Shown piece by piece: positions 38,474 to 43,782 of a stretch of DNA of 64,000 nucleotides (positions are counted from its first letter, which is position 1; every line of letters begins with the position of its first letter). Origin of the DNA: Candidatus Thorarchaeota archaeon (GTDB lineage Archaea > Asgardarchaeota > Thorarchaeia > Thorarchaeales > Thorarchaeaceae). A program made the translations under genes and the position numbers. Under the pieces are notes generated by a model. It was not told where the DNA came from and did not search any database. It saw only the letters and a program-made list of their open reading frames with translations. The stretch lies in assembly GCA_011364905.1 (NCBI GenBank), contig RDNZ01000008.1, forward strand, positions 16,923 to 80,922. The letters run 5' to 3'.

Positions 38474-38556
38474 ATAATACTCCCTCTTAAAGCACGAGTG
38501 GTTCTAAGACATCTGCCGACCAAGTGCGGATTAGAAGAACGAAGGGACACACTCCA

Positions 38557-39315
38557 ATGCATGAGCGACTTCAATCAGAACTCTATGCTTCAATTGCTAC
38601 ACTTGACCAGCTGAAAAAACTCTATGACTTTGGTGCAGTGGATATAAGGTCCTATCAGAGGGAGTCCGAAGCCCTTCTTCAGGATGTTCGCACTCAGATT
38701 GAGAATCTTCGACGTTTGGGTCTTGATATTGGGAGATTTGTCACAAGCGAACGGATAATCGAGATATTTCCTGAGGCTGCAAATCTACTCCGACTTGGTA
38801 CTCACGCTCCAAGACGGTCTCTTCAGGGCATGACATTGGACCAGTTCTACGATTACATTGGCCTTGCTATACTTGACGTGGCAACCGAGAACTCATCAAA
38901 GGGCCTCATGGGCTTAGCAGAGCTTATTGTAGAGGTCGTCCGGCGACTTCCTGAGATTGAATCAGTGACCTACAATGATGTCATTGAATCTGTTAATCGT
39001 GTTGCTGAAAACGGGCTGATTCCTGGTATTCGAACCCTGCGAGGAGGAGTCAAAGTCGTGGAGCTTCGACCGCTAGAACTTCGGCGAGACCAAGCTGATG
39101 TGATCAATCTTGCAGCTACAAAAGGATACGTTTCTGTCGAGGAGGTCATAATGCAGCTCAAATGGTCCGAAGATCATGCGCGTCAAGTTCTTTCAAGTTT
39201 GGTGGATGCAGGCATGGCTGTAGCTGATATCCGCTTCTCCACAGGTGGCCGGTACTATTTCCCTGGCTTAAGGTCTCGTGAAAGCACCGATTCACGAAAC
39301 ACAGGTGCTTACTGA
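38557..39315 (+). CDS. Vps22/EAP30-like ESCRT-II protein with an N-terminal Vps28-like (ESCRT-I core) domain
   Basis: C-part FYDYIGLAI...GLMGLAEL...PLELRRDQADVINLA...GYVSVEEV...LKWSEDHARQVL...YYFPGL matches the SNF8/Vps22 winged helices; N-part SELYASIATLDQLKKLY...SYQRESEALL resembles Vps28-N. Confidence 0.8.
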   Translation: MHERLQSELYASIATLDQLKKLYDFGAVDIRSYQRESEALLQDVRTQIENLRRLGLDIGRFVTSERIIEIFPEAANLLRLGTHAPRRSLQGMTLDQFYDYIGLAILDVATENSSKGLMGLAELIVEVVRRLPEIESVTYNDVIESVNRVAENGLIPGIRTLRGGVKVVELRPLELRRDQADVINLAATKGYVSVEEVIMQLKWSEDHARQVLSSLVDAGMAVADIRFSTGGRYYFPGLRSRESTDSRNTGAY

Positions 39316-39317
39316 CT

Positions 39318-40055
39318 CTATGATGATGAAATTATAATCGCTCCTTTCTTCTCATCAATCCACTCAGCTAGTCCTTTCTTGACCATAAGGGCAAGAACTA
39401 TGTGAATGTCCTTCTCTGGGAGGTTAGCAAAATCCTCCTCGACTTCTTGAATGACGATTGATTTCACATCTAGTCTAAGTTTTCCTGTCTTCAATGCCCA
39501 CTGGTACACTATGTCCGCCCAATCTTCAAGAGGTCGCCAATAGACTCTTAGCTGGCGCTGTTTCTTGTCGACCCACTCAGCAACTTCTTTGTTCACGAGG
39601 ACTTCTGCTATATCCCTGAATGAATCTACTTTGTTTCTCAGATCCTTGAATGGTGGTTCACTGATGAACGTAGCTAGAGACAGAATGTGCACCTTGTTAT
39701 TCTCTGTCCACTCCAAGAGATAATCTGCCCATTCCTCTGCCCAAAGATTTCGGTCCTCCTCTCTGGTTGGTATTCCATACATCCATTCAGTTTCCTCAAT
39801 ATCTCCCCAACTTGGCATCAGAGAATCGGGTTCAACGATCTTAGTTTCAAGTTCCGCATCATTCGCAGTTTCGATTTCTGTTTTGGGCTTGACTACTTCC
39901 GTAGTTTCCTCAACTTCGACAACAACTTCTGGAGAATGAGTTGTGTCCTCAGTGATGGTTCTATCAATATCTGGGGATTCAATTTGTTCTTGTTTTACGG
40001 GCTTGGCTGACTTCTTTTGTTTGGCCTTCTCCCGTTTTCTCTCCTTGACACCCAA
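39318..40055 (-). CDS. vps25: ESCRT-II subunit Vps25 with basic/acidic N-terminal extension
   Basis: EEWADYLLEW, AEWVD, VYWRPLEDWADIVYQWA (the Vps25 WRxPEEWxxxIYxW signature); TTG start 3 bp after the vps4 stop. Confidence 0.85.
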   Translation of the reverse strand: MGVKERKREKAKQKKSAKPVKQEQIESPDIDRTITEDTTHSPEVVVEVEETTEVVKPKTEIETANDAELETKIVEPDSLMPSWGDIEETEWMYGIPTREEDRNLWAEEWADYLLEWTENNKVHILSLATFISEPPFKDLRNKVDSFRDIAEVLVNKEVAEWVDKKQRQLRVYWRPLEDWADIVYQWALKTGKLRLDVKSIVIQEVEEDFANLPEKDIHIVLALMVKKGLAEWIDEKKGAIIISSS

Positions 40056-40058
40056 ACC

Positions 40059-41276
40059 TTAGGAACCCTCCGCCCAGTCAATATACTTCTTGACATCCTC
40101 AGGTGGAGTTGCAGGGCGAATGTTTTCAATGGCATGTAGGAAGTCGTCCCTCGATACGGGACGAATGTCGAGGATCTCCTGTTCATCTTCCATTCTGCCA
40201 GTCCGCTGCAAATCCCTAATTGGTTCCAGAGCTGCCTCTCGACAGACTACACTGATGTCTCTCCCGCTGTACCCTTCTGTGAGGTCCGCAAGCTCCTCAT
40301 ACTCGACAGTCGGGGCAACCTCGACATCTTCCATGTGAATCTCGAAAATCTTCGCACGCGCATCTCTGTTCGGAAGAGGAACATGTATCTTCTTCTCAAA
40401 CCTAGATCTCAGAGCAAAATCCAACTCCCAAGGCAGATTAGTTGCACCAATTAGAGTGATTCGTTCATCCTCATTACTTGCTAGTCCTTGGAGTTCAGTG
40501 AGCAGCTGTGTTTTCAGACGTCTCTCACCCCCAACATCATCTCCTGATCTTGAAACACCAATGGAATCCAACTCATCAATGAAGATGATGGCGGGCTGAT
40601 TTTTTCTTGCTAGTTCAAAGAGGCTCATCACCAATCTTTCAGATTCGCCCAACCACTTGCTTACTATATTTGCTGCTGATACGTTGAAGAATGTTGCATT
40701 AACCTCTGAAGCCACAGCTTTGGCGACGAGGGTTTTGCCACACCCTGCGGGACCATAGAAGAGAATGCCTCTCCAGGGTTGTCTGGCTTTTCCCTTGAAG
40801 AGCTCGGGATGCTTCATTGGTGCGATTATCGCATCATCAATAGCTTGTTTTGCATCTTCAAGACCTGCAACCTCTGACATTTTTATTCTAGGACGTTCCG
40901 TAATGATAGTGTCTGAAATCATCTCTCTGAGTCGTTTTTCCTCGTCGTCTAATTCAACTTCCGTCTTTGAGGCTTCATGGATTGAAACTGGCTCAGCTGT
41001 ATCAACATCGACTGTCGGAGGTGAAACAAGTCCATCTACAGGTCCGTGTGACTTCTTCTTGATACCTGAAAGATACCTCACTCTATCCACGCATTCCTGA
41101 GCTCTATCAAAATAGTGCTTCTTAACTGAAGGCAACGCTGATGAATTTGATAACTTAATGAGAATCTTGCTTGCTTTGAGATACTCTTGGCAAGCCTCTT
41201 TTTTCATGCCCCTTTGGTCTAATTCTATTGCTTTAGAGAGCATTGCCTTTAGTCCCTGATCTACGCGGTCTGCCAT
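40059..41276 (-). CDS. vps4: Vps4/CdvC AAA+ ATPase with N-terminal MIT domain
   Basis: MIT (KAIELD...YLKA...YFDRA), PWRGILFYGPAGCGKT, SKWLGESE, IIFIDELD, GATNLPWELD, GYSGRDI. Confidence 0.93.
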   Translation of the reverse strand: MADRVDQGLKAMLSKAIELDQRGMKKEACQEYLKASKILIKLSNSSALPSVKKHYFDRAQECVDRVRYLSGIKKKSHGPVDGLVSPPTVDVDTAEPVSIHEASKTEVELDDEEKRLREMISDTIITERPRIKMSEVAGLEDAKQAIDDAIIAPMKHPELFKGKARQPWRGILFYGPAGCGKTLVAKAVASEVNATFFNVSAANIVSKWLGESERLVMSLFELARKNQPAIIFIDELDSIGVSRSGDDVGGERRLKTQLLTELQGLASNEDERITLIGATNLPWELDFALRSRFEKKIHVPLPNRDARAKIFEIHMEDVEVAPTVEYEELADLTEGYSGRDISVVCREAALEPIRDLQRTGRMEDEQEILDIRPVSRDDFLHAIENIRPATPPEDVKKYIDWAEGS

Positions 41277-41418: not shown

Positions 41419-42036
41419 GTGATAGAATTGGGTTCAATTAGAAAGGCATTCTCCTGGGGCAGAAAAAAACCAGATATAGGTGAGGTCTCAAGCCGACTCA
41501 GGATCTTATCCAAGCAGCTAGCGCGCCAAAGGAACAAATTGGAAAAAGAGGAGAGGGACGCTAAATCGCGAGCAGTCCGAGCGCGAAAAGCTGGTCAATT
41601 GGAAGCCTATCGAACATATGCTACTGAGATGGTTCGATTTCGCCGATATGCCCTTTCGGTTGACAAGTCGCGCCTGCAAATTCTGAAGATTCTAGCTCAT
41701 CTAAATCGCGCTCAGACATCAGCGAAGACACAATTAGCATTGCAGGAGGTCGCAAAGATTCTTGGAATGTTGGGGGACGGTTCCGACGCCACTAAGGTAG
41801 TAGCGAATGTAGATGAGATTGCTCGTCGCCTCGAGGAGTTCGAGATTGAAGCGAGTATCTCCGATGAGGCTCTGGATTCAACAATGGAAGTGTCATCTGA
41901 AGACTTGACATTTGCATATCAGGAAATCGATGCTGAAGCTGGGCTTGCTGATACTCCGGCTGTAACAAGACCTGCTAGTGAATCCGAATCTCTTGAAGAA
42001 GATATCAAAGCGTTAGAACGCGAACTTGGAGTGTAG
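41419..42036 (+). CDS. ESCRT-III subunit, Vps2/24/46 (ESCRT-IIIA) type, Snf7 family
   Basis: Basic N-terminal helical hairpin (KLEKEE...ARKAGQ...YATEMVRFR), acidic C-half, MIM1-like end LEEDIKALERELGV; divergent from vps4. Confidence 0.88.
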   Translation: MIELGSIRKAFSWGRKKPDIGEVSSRLRILSKQLARQRNKLEKEERDAKSRAVRARKAGQLEAYRTYATEMVRFRRYALSVDKSRLQILKILAHLNRAQTSAKTQLALQEVAKILGMLGDGSDATKVVANVDEIARRLEEFEIEASISDEALDSTMEVSSEDLTFAYQEIDAEAGLADTPAVTRPASESESLEEDIKALERELGV

Positions 42037-42038
42037 AA

Positions 42039-43616
42039 TCACCACAGTGCATCACGAGATTCTTTGCCGATTCGTTCCATCTCTAGTCTAGTATGGTAGG
42101 AGTCCCTCATCAACTCTCGATATCTTCTAATGAAGTCCTCGGCCATAAGCTGACCACTTCGTAGCATGTGGACAGTATCTCGAATTGCTGCTTCAATGGA
42201 TGCTGCATCTCTTTGTAGCGAATGTAGCCTGGGATTAGTATCATAACTTGGGTGAATACTTGGTTTCTGACCATATTGGCCAACGACTCTGCCAAGCTCA
42301 TCTTTGAATGATTCCGGTTTTCTGTAGTAACTATCGTAGGGGTAATGGCGAACAGGAGAAGGATTCCACCCCTCTGCTCCAGGTATTGAACCTGGTCGCA
42401 TCATTGACATATCTTCCTTGTACTGAGACCTGTCATTGGTGGAGAGGAGTGAATAAACCATCCCTTCGATCTTTAATCGCACATCGCTTGTGCTGATATC
42501 GGTTTGCTCAATCTTTCTGACCCTTTGCATATCAGTTTGTATATACTTCTCAAACTTCCTAGCAATTTCAATATAGTCTGGCAAGACTTTCTTTGTCTGG
42601 TCAGCACATGTTAGTCTAATCTCCCCTTGTTTTAACTTTAAGACGAGGCGTTTTCGGAGTCGCCCATCCTCCTCAATAGATTTCAAATAGAGCAACGGGA
42701 AGTCAAAGATGGTTTCCATCTTCTTTCTGACTCTTCCAGTTTCTGCAATGAACAGCAGTCGTTTGTTTGTCATGAAAAGCATTCCAAGGGCCTTATCGTT
42801 TTTGAGAAAGTCGCTACCTGATATTTTGATATCAGGAAGGGCACACACAGGCAACTCTCCAACTGAAAGTTGACCGTGTTCATAGAACATGGTAAACTGC
42901 CCTTTGTAGTAATCGAGCCCATCAAGCTGCCTCTTGACGTCCTTGAGTGTTTCTCTTAGAGGTTCGAGGGACTCGTCAACATTCTGTTTATAGTAGATAC
43001 CCATCTCTGTTATTCTGTTCGTTATCCCCTCTATGAATGGGAATTGATTTGGATTCCATTGATTATAGTCGATGAAGTCCCTTGTTTCAGCTGCCATTCT
43101 CTTTGCTATGATCTCTGCTTGACTAGAGATTCTATTCTTAATCGCCGGCAGTTCATCCTGCATGCCTTCAATCTTCTCTTCTATCCATTTGTAGTGGAGA
43201 AAGTTAGCCATTCTTAGAGATACAAGCAGTCTCTTTGCACTCGCTAGTTTGTTTGTGAACTCTCTGAGTTTAGTATGTCCATACTGAATAGTCATTATGG
43301 CATGTCGCATATCTAGGGCAAGAGACCTTCTCCGGTCTTCCAGAAGTACGACTCTGGTAGAGTGGCACTTCGGACAGATATCCACTGTTTTTCGTCCCTT
43401 GCTGAGTTCCTCTGATTCACATTGCGGGCATGTTTCGAACTTCTCACCGGGCACTGGTGTTCCCAGTATGTGGTGGCACTCACTGCAAACAATGTACTCT
43501 GTGGATTTTGATTCAAGACATTCCGTACACAAGGCGGCCCCACAGTCTTCACACATATGTGTCGCTCTTCCAGATTGACACGATTTGCATTGGCCCGTTG
43601 GAGAGTCTTTTATCAA
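42039..43616 (-). CDS. Zn-finger / coiled-coil / PH(GRAM/GLUE)-like / steadiness-box protein, putative ESCRT-I Vps23/37-like subunit
   Basis: Six CxxC pairs; long helical region; GMLFMTNKRLLF...FDFPLLYLKSIE; C-terminal SIEAAIRDTVHMLRSGQLMAEDFIRRYRELMRDSY; TTG start with GGAGGT SD. Confidence 0.7.
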   Translation of the reverse strand: MIKDSPTGQCKSCQSGRATHMCEDCGAALCTECLESKSTEYIVCSECHHILGTPVPGEKFETCPQCESEELSKGRKTVDICPKCHSTRVVLLEDRRRSLALDMRHAIMTIQYGHTKLREFTNKLASAKRLLVSLRMANFLHYKWIEEKIEGMQDELPAIKNRISSQAEIIAKRMAAETRDFIDYNQWNPNQFPFIEGITNRITEMGIYYKQNVDESLEPLRETLKDVKRQLDGLDYYKGQFTMFYEHGQLSVGELPVCALPDIKISGSDFLKNDKALGMLFMTNKRLLFIAETGRVRKKMETIFDFPLLYLKSIEEDGRLRKRLVLKLKQGEIRLTCADQTKKVLPDYIEIARKFEKYIQTDMQRVRKIEQTDISTSDVRLKIEGMVYSLLSTNDRSQYKEDMSMMRPGSIPGAEGWNPSPVRHYPYDSYYRKPESFKDELGRVVGQYGQKPSIHPSYDTNPRLHSLQRDAASIEAAIRDTVHMLRSGQLMAEDFIRRYRELMRDSYHTRLEMERIGKESRDALW

Positions 43617-43782
43617 GTGAGTACCTCCGGTAGTCTACTTACATCGAGGAGTTATCCAAGAATAACTCGTGTATTATTCTGGAAACATCGGGGTATCTCT
43701 GTATAAATTGCTAAAAGATTGTACACGCCATATCAGTTATATCCGACTAGAATTGCCTGACCTTAATTCACAGGCGATATTC

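What the first reader, a model, noticed from the sequence alone, without database searches (positions are those of the whole stretch)
42039..43616. Steadiness-box protein with a PH/GRAM domain and Zn fingers in place of a UEV: candidate ubiquitin-independent ESCRT-I adaptor
Seen: three Zn sites (B-box-like CKSC-x8-CEDC-x4-CTEC plus CSEC/CPQC/CPKC), about 150 aa of coiled coil, a PH-fold GRAM/GLUE-like segment (about 42560-42850, G-x-L-x-x-T-N-K-R-L-L-F), a Pro/Tyr-rich linker, and a C-terminus (about 42039-42240) resembling the Vps23/TSG101 steadiness box. Known: Vps23 is UEV-PRR-coiled coil-SB, and Vps36 carries a lipid-binding GLUE (split PH) domain with Zn fingers. Inference: this is a mosaic Vps36-like/Vps23-like protein that could target ESCRT through lipid or protein binding, and its SB would be the partner of the neighbouring Vps28-like domain.
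Basis: partly seen in the sequence, partly recalled or inferred. Interest (0 to 1): 0.85.

Follow-up and report, generated by a model that had tools for sequence, protein, structure and literature searches.

The report
Known Asgard zinc-PH-steadiness-box ESCRT adaptor

Summary
ORF 42039-43616 (-), 525 aa, has six CxxC pairs (12 Cys invariant across the family), a predicted antiparallel three-helix bundle, a basic PH domain of the GRAM/GLUE/bPH type, a variable Pro/Tyr-rich linker and a C-terminal helical hairpin.

The hairpin is a steadiness box (SB). A family profile that includes this sequence hits yeast Vps23 (E 1.3e-7) and human TSG101 (1.1e-5) as the top solved structures. The Thor sequence alone is below threshold and is linked only through non-Thor relatives.

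The gene sits beside Snf7, Vps4, Vps25 and SB-Vps22. This neighbourhood recurs in distant Asgard families. No UEV, E2 or ubiquitin was found in this genome, and no E2/UEV or Vps23 core over cut-off in 85 relatives.

It is not new. It is the orthologue (83% identity) of ThorAB25_08990 'SB', used in the two-hybrid screen of Hatano et al. 2022, and it matches the Znr_CC_PH_SB family (asCOG cog.011556) of Makarova et al. 2024. This scan reached the same verdict before on other Thorarchaeota DNA.

Two additions:
- One Asgard genus fuses the Zn-helical-PH module to a Vps22-type domain, which supports SB-SB pairing with the neighbouring Vps22.
- The true start is a TTG, 20 codons upstream of the published start.

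Function remains inferred.

The parts
42039..43616 (-). Whole gene: Zn / three-helix bundle / PH / linker / steadiness-box protein, 525 aa, TTG start, stop codon at 42039-42041
   Evidence: full-length homologues at 50-95% identity in Thorarchaeota MAGs
43623..43628 (-). Shine-Dalgarno-like GGAGGT, 6 nt upstream of the TTG start (43616-43614). An in-frame TAG at 43637-43635 excludes a longer ORF.
   Evidence: the same arrangement is present in ThorAB25
43344..43616 (-). Zn module, residues 1-91: six CxxC pairs making three predicted Zn sites. The first four pairs look like a B-box/RING/FYVE-type cross-brace and the last two like a Zn ribbon.
   Evidence: 12 Cys invariant in 46 sequences; zf-B_box in 14 of 23 members, best E 7.9e-6; ANCHR-like B-box 6.5e-6 in P0137; weak FYVE/RING hits in PDB
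42876..43343 (-). Helical domain, residues 92-247: predicted antiparallel three-helix bundle. LVSLRMANFLHY is invariant in Thorarchaeota and R135 is invariant family-wide.
42552..42869 (-). PH domain, residues 250-355, GRAM/GLUE/bPH type, pI 9.6
   Evidence: VIA-align Z 12.1 (1lw3), 11.3 (5yqr), 10.0 (2dx5); bPH_3 in 16 of 23 members, over the cut-off in P0164 and the L078 ORF
42432..42551 (-). Conserved helices after the PH domain, residues 356-395
42234..42431 (-). Variable, low-confidence Pro/Tyr-rich linker, residues 396-461
   Evidence: pLDDT 34-53; mean majority fraction 0.35
42042..42233 (-). Steadiness-box helical hairpin, residues 462-525
   Evidence: family profile A3 against PDB: yeast Vps23 1.3e-7, TSG101 1.1e-5, VPS37B 0.032; hhalign chain; VIA-align Z 9.2 to 2p22_A and 9.1 to 6vme_B at 22-23% identity
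41419..42036 (+). Neighbour: ESCRT-III (Snf7 family), tail-to-tail with the gene
   Evidence: Pfam Snf7 4.6e-9; adjacent in 68 of 71 Thorarchaeota loci and in several other Asgard families
40059..41276 (-). Neighbour: Vps4 (MIT, AAA, Vps4_C)
39318..40055 (-). Neighbour: Vps25 (ESCRT-II)
   Evidence: Pfam ESCRT-II 1.6e-16
38557..39315 (+). Neighbour: SB-Vps22 (an N-terminal SB-like hairpin followed by EAP30 tandem winged helix), the proposed SB partner. The likely start is the ATG at 38557.
   Evidence: EAP30 3.5e-14 and VPS28 N-terminal part 0.011; N-terminal 95 aa against the family SB, hhalign E 5e-5; SNF8 2.4e-15 in PDB; the orthologue ThorAB25_09030 starts MHERL

Best explanation
This is the Thorarchaeota member of the Asgard-specific Znr_CC_PH_SB family, the 'SB' protein of the Thorarchaeota ESCRT cluster. 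It most likely acts as the membrane-proximal, ubiquitin-independent adaptor that stands in for ESCRT-I.

Shown here:
- the domain architecture;
- family-level homology of the C-terminus to the Vps23/TSG101 steadiness box;
- linkage to ESCRT genes across Asgard families;
- no UEV, E2 or ubiquitin gene detected.

Inferred:
- The basic PH domain holds the protein on anionic membrane.
- The Zn module and three-helix bundle bind a cargo, a regulator or each other.
- The flexible linker of about 65 aa lets the C-terminal SB hairpin pack against the SB hairpin at the N-terminus of the neighbouring SB-Vps22. This would form a headpiece-like helical bundle that brings in Vps22/Vps25, then ESCRT-III (Snf7) and Vps4.
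For: Identity. The protein is 83% identical over 525 aa to the ThorAB25 contig-28 gene that carries the published ThorAB25_08990 'SB' sequence. The architecture equals Znr_CC_PH_SB as described in PMC10936438.

Steadiness box. Non-Thor family C-termini against bona fide Asgard UEV-Vps23 SBs give hhalign probability 98.6%, E 5e-16. The Thor C-terminus against non-Thor C-termini gives 96%, E 2e-9 to 3e-9, while control helices score 0.02-0.07. Family profile A3 hits Vps23 and TSG101 as the four best PDB sequences. Several non-Thor members pass Pfam's Vps23_core cut-off.

PH domain..

Linkage. 71 Thorarchaeota loci keep the gene order. The order Vps25-Vps4-Snf7-adaptor also occurs in families f6 and f14. 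Snf7 or SB-Vps22 is adjacent in f2, f14 and f28, and Snf7 lies within 3-4 kb in f15 and f30. The profile is found in 284 of 400 Asgard genomes.

Partner. The neighbour's N-terminus is SB-like. In genus g80 the Zn-helical-PH module is fused directly to a Vps22-type EAP30 domain in place of the SB.

No ubiquitin route detected.; E2/UEV hits over the cut-off in 0 of 86 Thorarchaeota genomes; Vps23_core in 0 of 85. The literature says the same. The Thor orthologue was included in the Hatano two-hybrid screen.
Against:
- The Thor hairpin compared directly with UEV-Vps23 SBs scores P 0.022, no better than control helices (0.015-0.3). The SB assignment for this protein therefore rests on a transitive chain.
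- Within Thorarchaeota the whole region, housekeeping genes included, is collinear, so that synteny alone proves little.
- In 8 of 18 non-Thor loci no ESCRT gene was seen within 10 kb by tblastn.
- The Hatano text is vague about which partner the Thor SB protein bound, and the figure is not held.
- The genome is 81% complete, so absence of UEV or ubiquitin in it is not proof.
Confidence: 0.6

Rival explanations
1. It is functionally the missing Vps36-like half of ESCRT-II rather than an ESCRT-I subunit. The Zn fingers and PH domain would play the role of the yeast Vps36 GLUE domain with its zinc fingers, joined to the winged-helix core non-covalently through SB-SB contact with SB-Vps22.
For: - A natural fusion of the same Zn-helical-PH module to an EAP30 domain exists in the three genomes of genus g80 searched (one is cut by a contig end), with a separate SB-Vps22 nearby in at least two.
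- The GLUE family (PF11605) gives repeated weak hits: 1.8e-4 in the fusion, 0.014 in P0163, and two Thor members.
- The EAP45 GLUE domain matches at Z 10.0 and Vps36 PH at TMt 0.54.
Against: - No GLUE hit reaches Pfam's cut-off.
- The PH domain is not split by an insert.
- bPH and GRAM domains score as well or better.
- The fused winged-helix part is closer to SNF8/Vps22 (1.2e-6) than to VPS36 (4e-4).
- The SB is the hallmark of ESCRT-I.
- This reading differs from the best explanation mainly in labelling.
Confidence: 0.2
2. It is a CdvA-like membrane template. The C-terminal hairpin drives self-polymerisation on the membrane, as in CdvA filaments, and this polymer recruits ESCRT-III for cell division without pairing with Vps22.
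For: - The hairpin 460-525 superposes best on the S. islandicus CdvA filament subunit (9s9g_A, Z 9.7, rmsd 1.0 over 66 residues).
- The Pfam CdvA family gives a weak hit at the same place in a relative (E 0.014).
- Published work links SB and CdvA hairpins.
- The gene is always next to Snf7.
Against: - Helical hairpins are generic, and Z 9-10 is within the noise for helical matches (note).
- Sequence profiles hit Vps23/TSG101, not CdvA, in PDB.
- No PRC-barrel family was hit. The N-terminus is a Zn module.
- The g80 fusion points to Vps22 as the partner.
Confidence: 0.1
3. The Zn module is a RING/B-box-type ligase or modifier-binding domain, so the protein marks or reads cargo through a non-ubiquitin small modifier. 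The PH and SB parts would only localise it.
For: Weak hits to B-box, RING (zf-C3HC4_3), FYVE and ANCHR-like B-box families, and to RNF4, CBL and BRE1 RING chains in PDB.
Against: - All hits are below threshold.
- No E2 was found in this genome and none over the cut-off in 86 Thorarchaeota genomes. No ubiquitin was found in this genome.
- The FYVE basic motif is replaced by ATHMCEDCG.
- The Zn module was not searched structurally on its own.
Confidence: 0.07
4. The gene is unrelated to ESCRT, and its position in the cluster reflects only conserved gene order in Thorarchaeota.
For: Housekeeping genes (AspRS, TldD/PmbA, ArgRS) are just as collinear in the 71 Thorarchaeota loci. Eight of 18 non-Thor loci show no ESCRT neighbour by tblastn.
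Against: - The SB homology.
- The same adjacency in families at 23-30% identity, and retained linkage after the rearrangement in L072.
- Fusion to EAP30.
- The family is restricted to Asgard genomes in the searches run.
Confidence: 0.03

Closest known systems
Asgard Znr_CC_PH_SB (also written Znr_PH_CC_SB), asCOG cog.011556; Makarova et al. 2024, mBio 15:e00335-24 (PMC10936438)
   Same: Three Zn-binding pairs of CxxC, a coiled-coil region, a PH domain and a C-terminal steadiness box, in that order. Restricted to Asgard archaea, located in ESCRT neighbourhoods, and proposed as an ESCRT-I component with a membrane-binding PH domain.
   Different: Nothing of substance. The Thorarchaeota version is shorter (525 aa against 650 aa in Lokiarchaeum GC14_75) and its SB is more divergent. 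AlphaFold2 predicts that the 'coiled coil' is a folded three-helix bundle.
ThorAB25_08990 'SB' protein of Hatano et al. 2022, Nat Commun 13:3398 (PMC9192718)
   Same: Orthologue, 83% identity, in the same five-gene cluster (SB, ESCRT-IIIA, Vps4, Vps25, Vps22). It was used in their yeast two-hybrid screen. Their Supplementary Fig. 8 legend lists RING, CC, PH and SB among the domains of Asgard ESCRT-I-like proteins.
   Different: The published sequence starts at the internal Met21 and so lacks the first CxxC (C10, C13). Here a TTG start with a GGAGGT ribosome-binding site gives the full Zn module.
Eukaryotic Vps23/TSG101 (ESCRT-I)
   Same: The C-terminal steadiness-box hairpin is homologous at family level, and a low-complexity Pro-rich linker is present.
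   Different: No UEV domain. No stalk helix runs into the SB. Zn fingers, a three-helix bundle and a PH domain are present instead. This single protein scores 13.3 bits against the Vps23_core cut-off of 26.8.
Eukaryotic Vps36/EAP45 (ESCRT-II; GLUE domain, with zinc fingers in yeast)
   Same: A PH-fold domain of the GRAM/GLUE type combined with Zn fingers, placed upstream of ESCRT-II. A relative in one Asgard genus carries the EAP30 winged-helix part in the same polypeptide.
   Different: The PH domain is not split. The Zn fingers are N-terminal CxxC pairs rather than fingers inserted in the PH domain as in yeast Vps36. This protein has no winged-helix domains. GLUE sequence similarity is below threshold.
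Crenarchaeal CdvA
   Same: A helical hairpin that superposes at 1.0 A rmsd, and a role as a membrane-side recruiter encoded next to ESCRT-III and Vps4.
   Different: No Pfam hit to a PRC-barrel family. Whether a C-terminal ESCRT-III-binding peptide exists was not tested. Sequence profiles favour Vps23.

Membership tests
Asgard Znr_CC_PH_SB (cog.011556) | N-terminal module with three Zn sites (six CxxC pairs) | tested here: met
   Six CxxC pairs at residues 10, 22, 30, 44, 63 and 81. All 12 Cys are invariant in 46 members.
Asgard Znr_CC_PH_SB (cog.011556) | Coiled-coil / long-helix region after the Zn module | tested here: met
   Helices 92-136, 143-181 and 189-242 with pLDDT above 85. They match three-helix coiled-coil bundles.
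Asgard Znr_CC_PH_SB (cog.011556) | PH domain | tested here: met
   VIA-align Z 12.1, rmsd 2.9, 107 residues aligned to the MTMR2 GRAM-PH. bPH_3 is over the cut-off in relatives.
Asgard Znr_CC_PH_SB (cog.011556) | C-terminal steadiness box | tested here: met
   Family profile against PDB: Vps23 1.3e-7, TSG101 1.1e-5. hhalign chain.
Asgard Znr_CC_PH_SB (cog.011556) | Sequence link to a listed asCOG member | not testable with these tools
   The stored supplement is cut and shows only the Lokiarchaeum GC14_75 entry (650 aa), without its sequence. Indirect support: the profile finds open frames of 664-747 aa in family f22 genomes and 83% identity to Hatano's ThorAB25_08990.
Vps23/TSG101 orthologue | N-terminal UEV domain | tested here: not met
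   No UEV or UQ_con hit on the protein. The best UEV hit in the genome has E 0.43 and lies elsewhere.
Vps23/TSG101 orthologue | Vps23_core (SB) at Pfam's cut-off | tested here: inconclusive
   This protein scores 13.3 bits against a cut-off of 26.8. Non-Thor family members score 27-31 bits. Family-level homology is shown.
Vps23/TSG101 orthologue | Stalk helix continuous with the SB | tested here: not met
   The hairpin is preceded by a low-confidence linker, 396-461, with only a short helix at 437-449.
Vps36/EAP45 | GLUE (split PH) domain | tested here: inconclusive
   PF11605 hits are all below the cut-off (best 22.0 against 24.1 bits, in the g80 fusion). 2dx5 matches at Z 10.0 and 2cay at E 0.44. 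No insert is seen in the PH domain.
Vps36/EAP45 | Tandem winged-helix EAP30 core | tested here: not met
   There is no EAP30 hit on this protein. The domain is present only in the fused g80 relatives.
CdvA | N-terminal PRC barrel and C-terminal ESCRT-III-binding peptide | tested here: inconclusive
   No PRC-barrel family was hit and the N-terminus is a Zn module. Only the hairpin matches (9s9g, Z 9.7). The peptide was not tested.
FYVE domain | Basic R(R/K)HHCR lipid-binding motif (recalled from established knowledge of FYVE domains) | tested here: not met
   The corresponding stretch reads ATHMCEDCG. FYVE hits have E of 0.016 or worse.
B-box / RING cross-brace Zn finger | Match over Pfam's cut-off and a cross-brace structure | tested here: inconclusive
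   zf-B_box scores 17.9 bits here against a cut-off of 24.1, with a best E of 7.9e-6 among relatives. ANCHR-like B-box scores 26.6 against 27. The Zn module was not searched structurally on its own (notes).

The most novel reading that the evidence does not exclude
The Zn-helical-PH module together with SB-Vps22 would be a split, archaeal counterpart of eukaryotic Vps36. In one Asgard genus (g80) the module is fused to a Vps22-type winged-helix core, giving a PH-plus-EAP30 protein. The papers read here state that no Vps36 homologue could be identified in Asgard genomes and suggest that Vps36 emerged during eukaryogenesis. If the PH domain is the true ancestor of the GLUE domain, Vps36 would predate eukaryotes, and the ESCRT-I/II bridge would have begun as an SB-SB contact.
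Probability: 0.15. Interest if true: 0.65.

Novelty: already known. Interest (0 to 1): 0.22.

Why it matters
The family is a candidate for how ESCRT is targeted to membranes without ubiquitin in the archaeal relatives of eukaryotes. It therefore bears on the origin of ESCRT-I and ESCRT-II. That point has already been made in print, so this window adds only another orthologue.

- A clean family-level proof that the C-terminus is a Vps23-type steadiness box.
- A natural fusion that points to SB-Vps22 as the partner and yields a Vps36-like architecture.
- Evidence that the published Thorarchaeota sequence starts 20 residues too late and so lacks two Zn ligands. This could affect the published two-hybrid results if the construct matched the listed sequence.

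Tried and rejected
- A full-length family profile against PDB sequences found only weak FYVE/RING/B-box hits and no SB. The SB appeared only with a C-terminal profile that includes non-Thor members.
- Direct hhalign of the Thor C-terminus against Asgard UEV-Vps23 SBs gave P 0.022. Control helices scored 0.015-0.3, so the direct comparison is rejected as evidence.
- Foldseek on the whole model gave DH-PH RhoGEF hits (E about 3e-5), but with TM 0.2-0.3 and rmsd about 20 A. I read these as a long helix plus a PH domain, not a DH domain.
- Foldseek on residues 1-250 found nothing at E of 0.001 or better. VIA-align gave only generic three-helix, BAR and ALIX-arm matches at Z below 10, which do not discriminate for helical folds. 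A BAR-PH reading is therefore not supported, though not excluded.
- A weak VPS28 hit on contig C3 (E 0.003) lies in a 433-aa coiled-coil ORF and was not taken as a Vps28.
Contexts of distant relatives were obtained through the genome search and the fetch from genomes instead.
- One search of earlier findings failed on a word format.
- Co-folding of the two SB hairpins could not be run, because the structure tool takes one chain.
Full report
**What is there.**
The finding covers one ORF, 42039-43616 on the minus strand, 525 aa. It lies in a five-gene block:
- SB-Vps22 (38557-39315, +; EAP30 E 3.5e-14 plus a weak Vps28 N-terminal hit);
- Vps25 (39318-40055, -);
- Vps4 (40059-41276, -);
- a Snf7-family ESCRT-III gene (41419-42036, +);
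- this gene.

Homologues at 50-95% identity over the full length are nearly all from Thorarchaeota MAGs, so the window is thorarchaeotal.

**Check of the observation.**
- Zinc sites. All twelve Cys are invariant in an alignment of 46 family members that reaches about 20% identity.
- Overall model. AlphaFold2 with a family alignment gives a confident model except for the linker. Residues 1-250 alone reach pLDDT 88.6.
- Helical region. The 'coiled coil' is predicted as three long helices that superpose on single-chain antiparallel three-helix bundles (5j0l Z 9.9; 9rgv Z 9.3, rmsd 2.7). It is not a Vps23-type stalk running into the SB. AlphaFold2 monomer models can fold back helices that are extended in oligomers, so this point is a prediction.
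- PH domain. Residues 250-355 form a PH fold. The best matches are the MTMR2 GRAM-PH (Z 12.1), the Lam6 PH-like domain (11.3) and, slightly lower, the EAP45 GLUE domain (10.0). The segment is basic, pI 9.6. A PH-only family profile finds in PDB only bacterial PH, BBS5, Vps36 GLUE and GRAM chains, none significant. The fold and its subtype are supported. Specific GLUE membership is not.
- Linker. Residues 396-461 are Pro/Tyr-rich, poorly conserved and of low confidence.
- Hairpin. Residues 462-525 form a confident helical hairpin.

**Is the hairpin a steadiness box?**
On this protein alone Pfam's Vps23_core scores 13.3 bits against a cut-off of 26.8. A direct profile comparison with bona fide Asgard UEV-Vps23 SBs gives P 0.022, no better than control helices from the same protein. 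The link is transitive but strong:
- The Thor C-terminus matches the C-termini of non-Thor family members at hhalign E 2e-9 to 3e-9, where controls score 0.02-0.07.
- Those non-Thor C-termini match UEV-Vps23 SBs at E 5e-16.
- Several non-Thor members pass Pfam's cut-off on their own at 27-31 bits.
- A C-terminal profile with the window's sequence as first row finds yeast Vps23 (2f66 1.3e-7, 2p22, 2caz) and human TSG101 (6vme_B 1.1e-5) as the four best of 177,635 PDB sequences, with VPS37B at 0.032.
- Structurally the hairpin superposes on Vps23 (Z 9.2, 23% identity), TSG101 (Z 9.1) and, most closely, the CdvA filament subunit (Z 9.7, rmsd 1.0).

**Context and distribution.**
- All 71 Thorarchaeota loci that were fetched keep the order adaptor-Snf7-Vps4-Vps25-SB-Vps22. 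The flanking housekeeping genes are equally collinear, so this says little by itself.
- The family profile is found in 284 of 400 Asgard genomes. It is present in 82 of 85 genomes of the window's own family and absent from some families (0/31, 0/22, 0/12).
- At 23-30% identity the block Vps25-Vps4-Snf7-adaptor recurs in families f6 and f14. Snf7 or SB-Vps22 is adjacent in f2, f14 and f28, and Snf7 lies within 3-4 kb in f15 and f30. Eight of 18 non-Thor loci showed no ESCRT neighbour by tblastn.
- This genome (81% complete) has no UEV, E2 or ubiquitin hit. Its best Vps23_core hit is this gene.
- None of 86 Thorarchaeota genomes has an E2/UEV match over the cut-off, and none of 85 has a Vps23_core match at E of 1e-4 or better.

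**Partner.**
The N-terminal 95 residues of the neighbouring SB-Vps22 align with the family SB in the correct register (hhalign E 5e-5).

In genus g80 (family f28) the same Zn-helical-PH module is fused to an EAP30 domain in place of the SB. The protein is 601 aa in one genome and is found full length at 64% identity in a second. In a third it is cut by a contig end. A separate SB-Vps22-like gene lies a few kb upstream in at least two of these genomes. Two proteins that each carry an SB in most lineages are thus one chain without SBs in another lineage. The fused winged-helix part is closer to SNF8/Vps22 than to VPS36.

**Comparison with what is known.**
- Makarova et al. 2024 describe exactly this architecture as Znr_CC_PH_SB (asCOG cog.011556). 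They call it a likely ESCRT-I component with a membrane-associated PH domain, and they describe Vps22 fused to an SB.
- Hatano et al. 2022 list ThorAB25_08990 'SB', ESCRT-IIIA, Vps4, Vps25 and Vps22 among the Thorarchaeota proteins used in their two-hybrid screen. The legend of their supplementary domain figure lists RING, CC, PH and SB. The ThorAB25 gene is 83% identical to this one.
- Both groups, and a 2023 preprint, note that Thorarchaeota lack ubiquitin and UEV-Vps23.
- The finding is therefore a correct reading of a known family.
- Earlier follow-ups in this scan reached the same verdict on other Thorarchaeota genomes. I found the two papers before seeing those notes.

**Small additions.**
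- The start is a TTG at 43616 with GGAGGT six bases upstream, and an in-frame TAG just before it. ThorAB25 has the same arrangement.
- The published ThorAB25_08990 sequence, and many gene calls of 505 aa, begin at Met21 and lack C10 and C13, which are invariant ligands. A construct matching the listed sequence would lack half of one Zn site.

**Verdict.**
- Observation: confirmed.
- Interpretation: supported, but the function is still inferred.
- Novelty: already known.
- The most novel reading still open is that the module and SB-Vps22 together represent a split Vps36-like unit. I give this about 15%.

Noticed in passing
L082:9701-11506 (G299:C138:83400-85202); L127 (G300:C95:9025-10839); L128 (G298:C86, cut by the contig end): A natural fusion of the Zn / three-helix / PH module to an EAP30 (Vps22/36-type) tandem winged-helix domain, with no steadiness box. 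It is conserved in the three genomes of one Asgard genus that were searched, and a separate SB-Vps22-like gene lies a few kb upstream in at least two of them. This is a Vps36-like architecture, whereas the papers read here report that no Vps36 homologue could be identified in Asgard archaea. I could not check whether it is catalogued as asCOG cog.002441.
   Followed up: partly
window 43614-43637 (-); L007:5824: The gene starts at a TTG with a GGAGGT ribosome-binding site 6 nt upstream and an in-frame TAG just before it. The published ThorAB25_08990 sequence and many 505-aa gene calls start at the internal Met21 and lack the invariant C10 and C13 of the first Zn site.
   Followed up: yes
window 43191-43232 (residues 129-142) and R135: LVSLRMANFLHY at the end of the first long helix is invariant in 23 Thorarchaeota sequences, and R135 is the only non-Cys residue invariant in all 46 family members. 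This looks like a conserved surface with no assigned partner.
   Followed up: no
window 38524-38557: The neighbouring SB-Vps22 ORF can start at the GTG at 38524, but the orthologue used by Hatano et al. starts at MHERL, which corresponds to the ATG at 38557.
   Followed up: partly
L124 (G000:C95:14082-14567): A second and stronger Snf7-family gene (63 bits) lies on another contig, away from the cluster. It is probably the ESCRT-IIIB (Vps20/32/60-type) paralogue.
   Followed up: no
L003:356-1657 (G000:C3): A 433-aa coiled-coil ORF gives the genome's best, sub-threshold VPS28 hit (17.9 bits, covering profile positions 19-186). It is probably a coiled-coil artefact, but it is the only candidate for a Vps28-like protein in this genome.
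   Followed up: partly
L072: In the most divergent Thorarchaeota locus (40% identity) the Vps4-Vps25-SB-Vps22 block is inverted and moved to the other side of the TldD/PmbA genes. It stays within 6 kb of the adaptor, and Snf7 remains adjacent.
   Followed up: no
model residues 460-525: The closest structural match of the hairpin is the recently solved S. islandicus CdvA filament (9s9g_A, rmsd 1.0 A over 66 residues). This fits the published idea that SB and CdvA hairpins share an origin.
   Followed up: no
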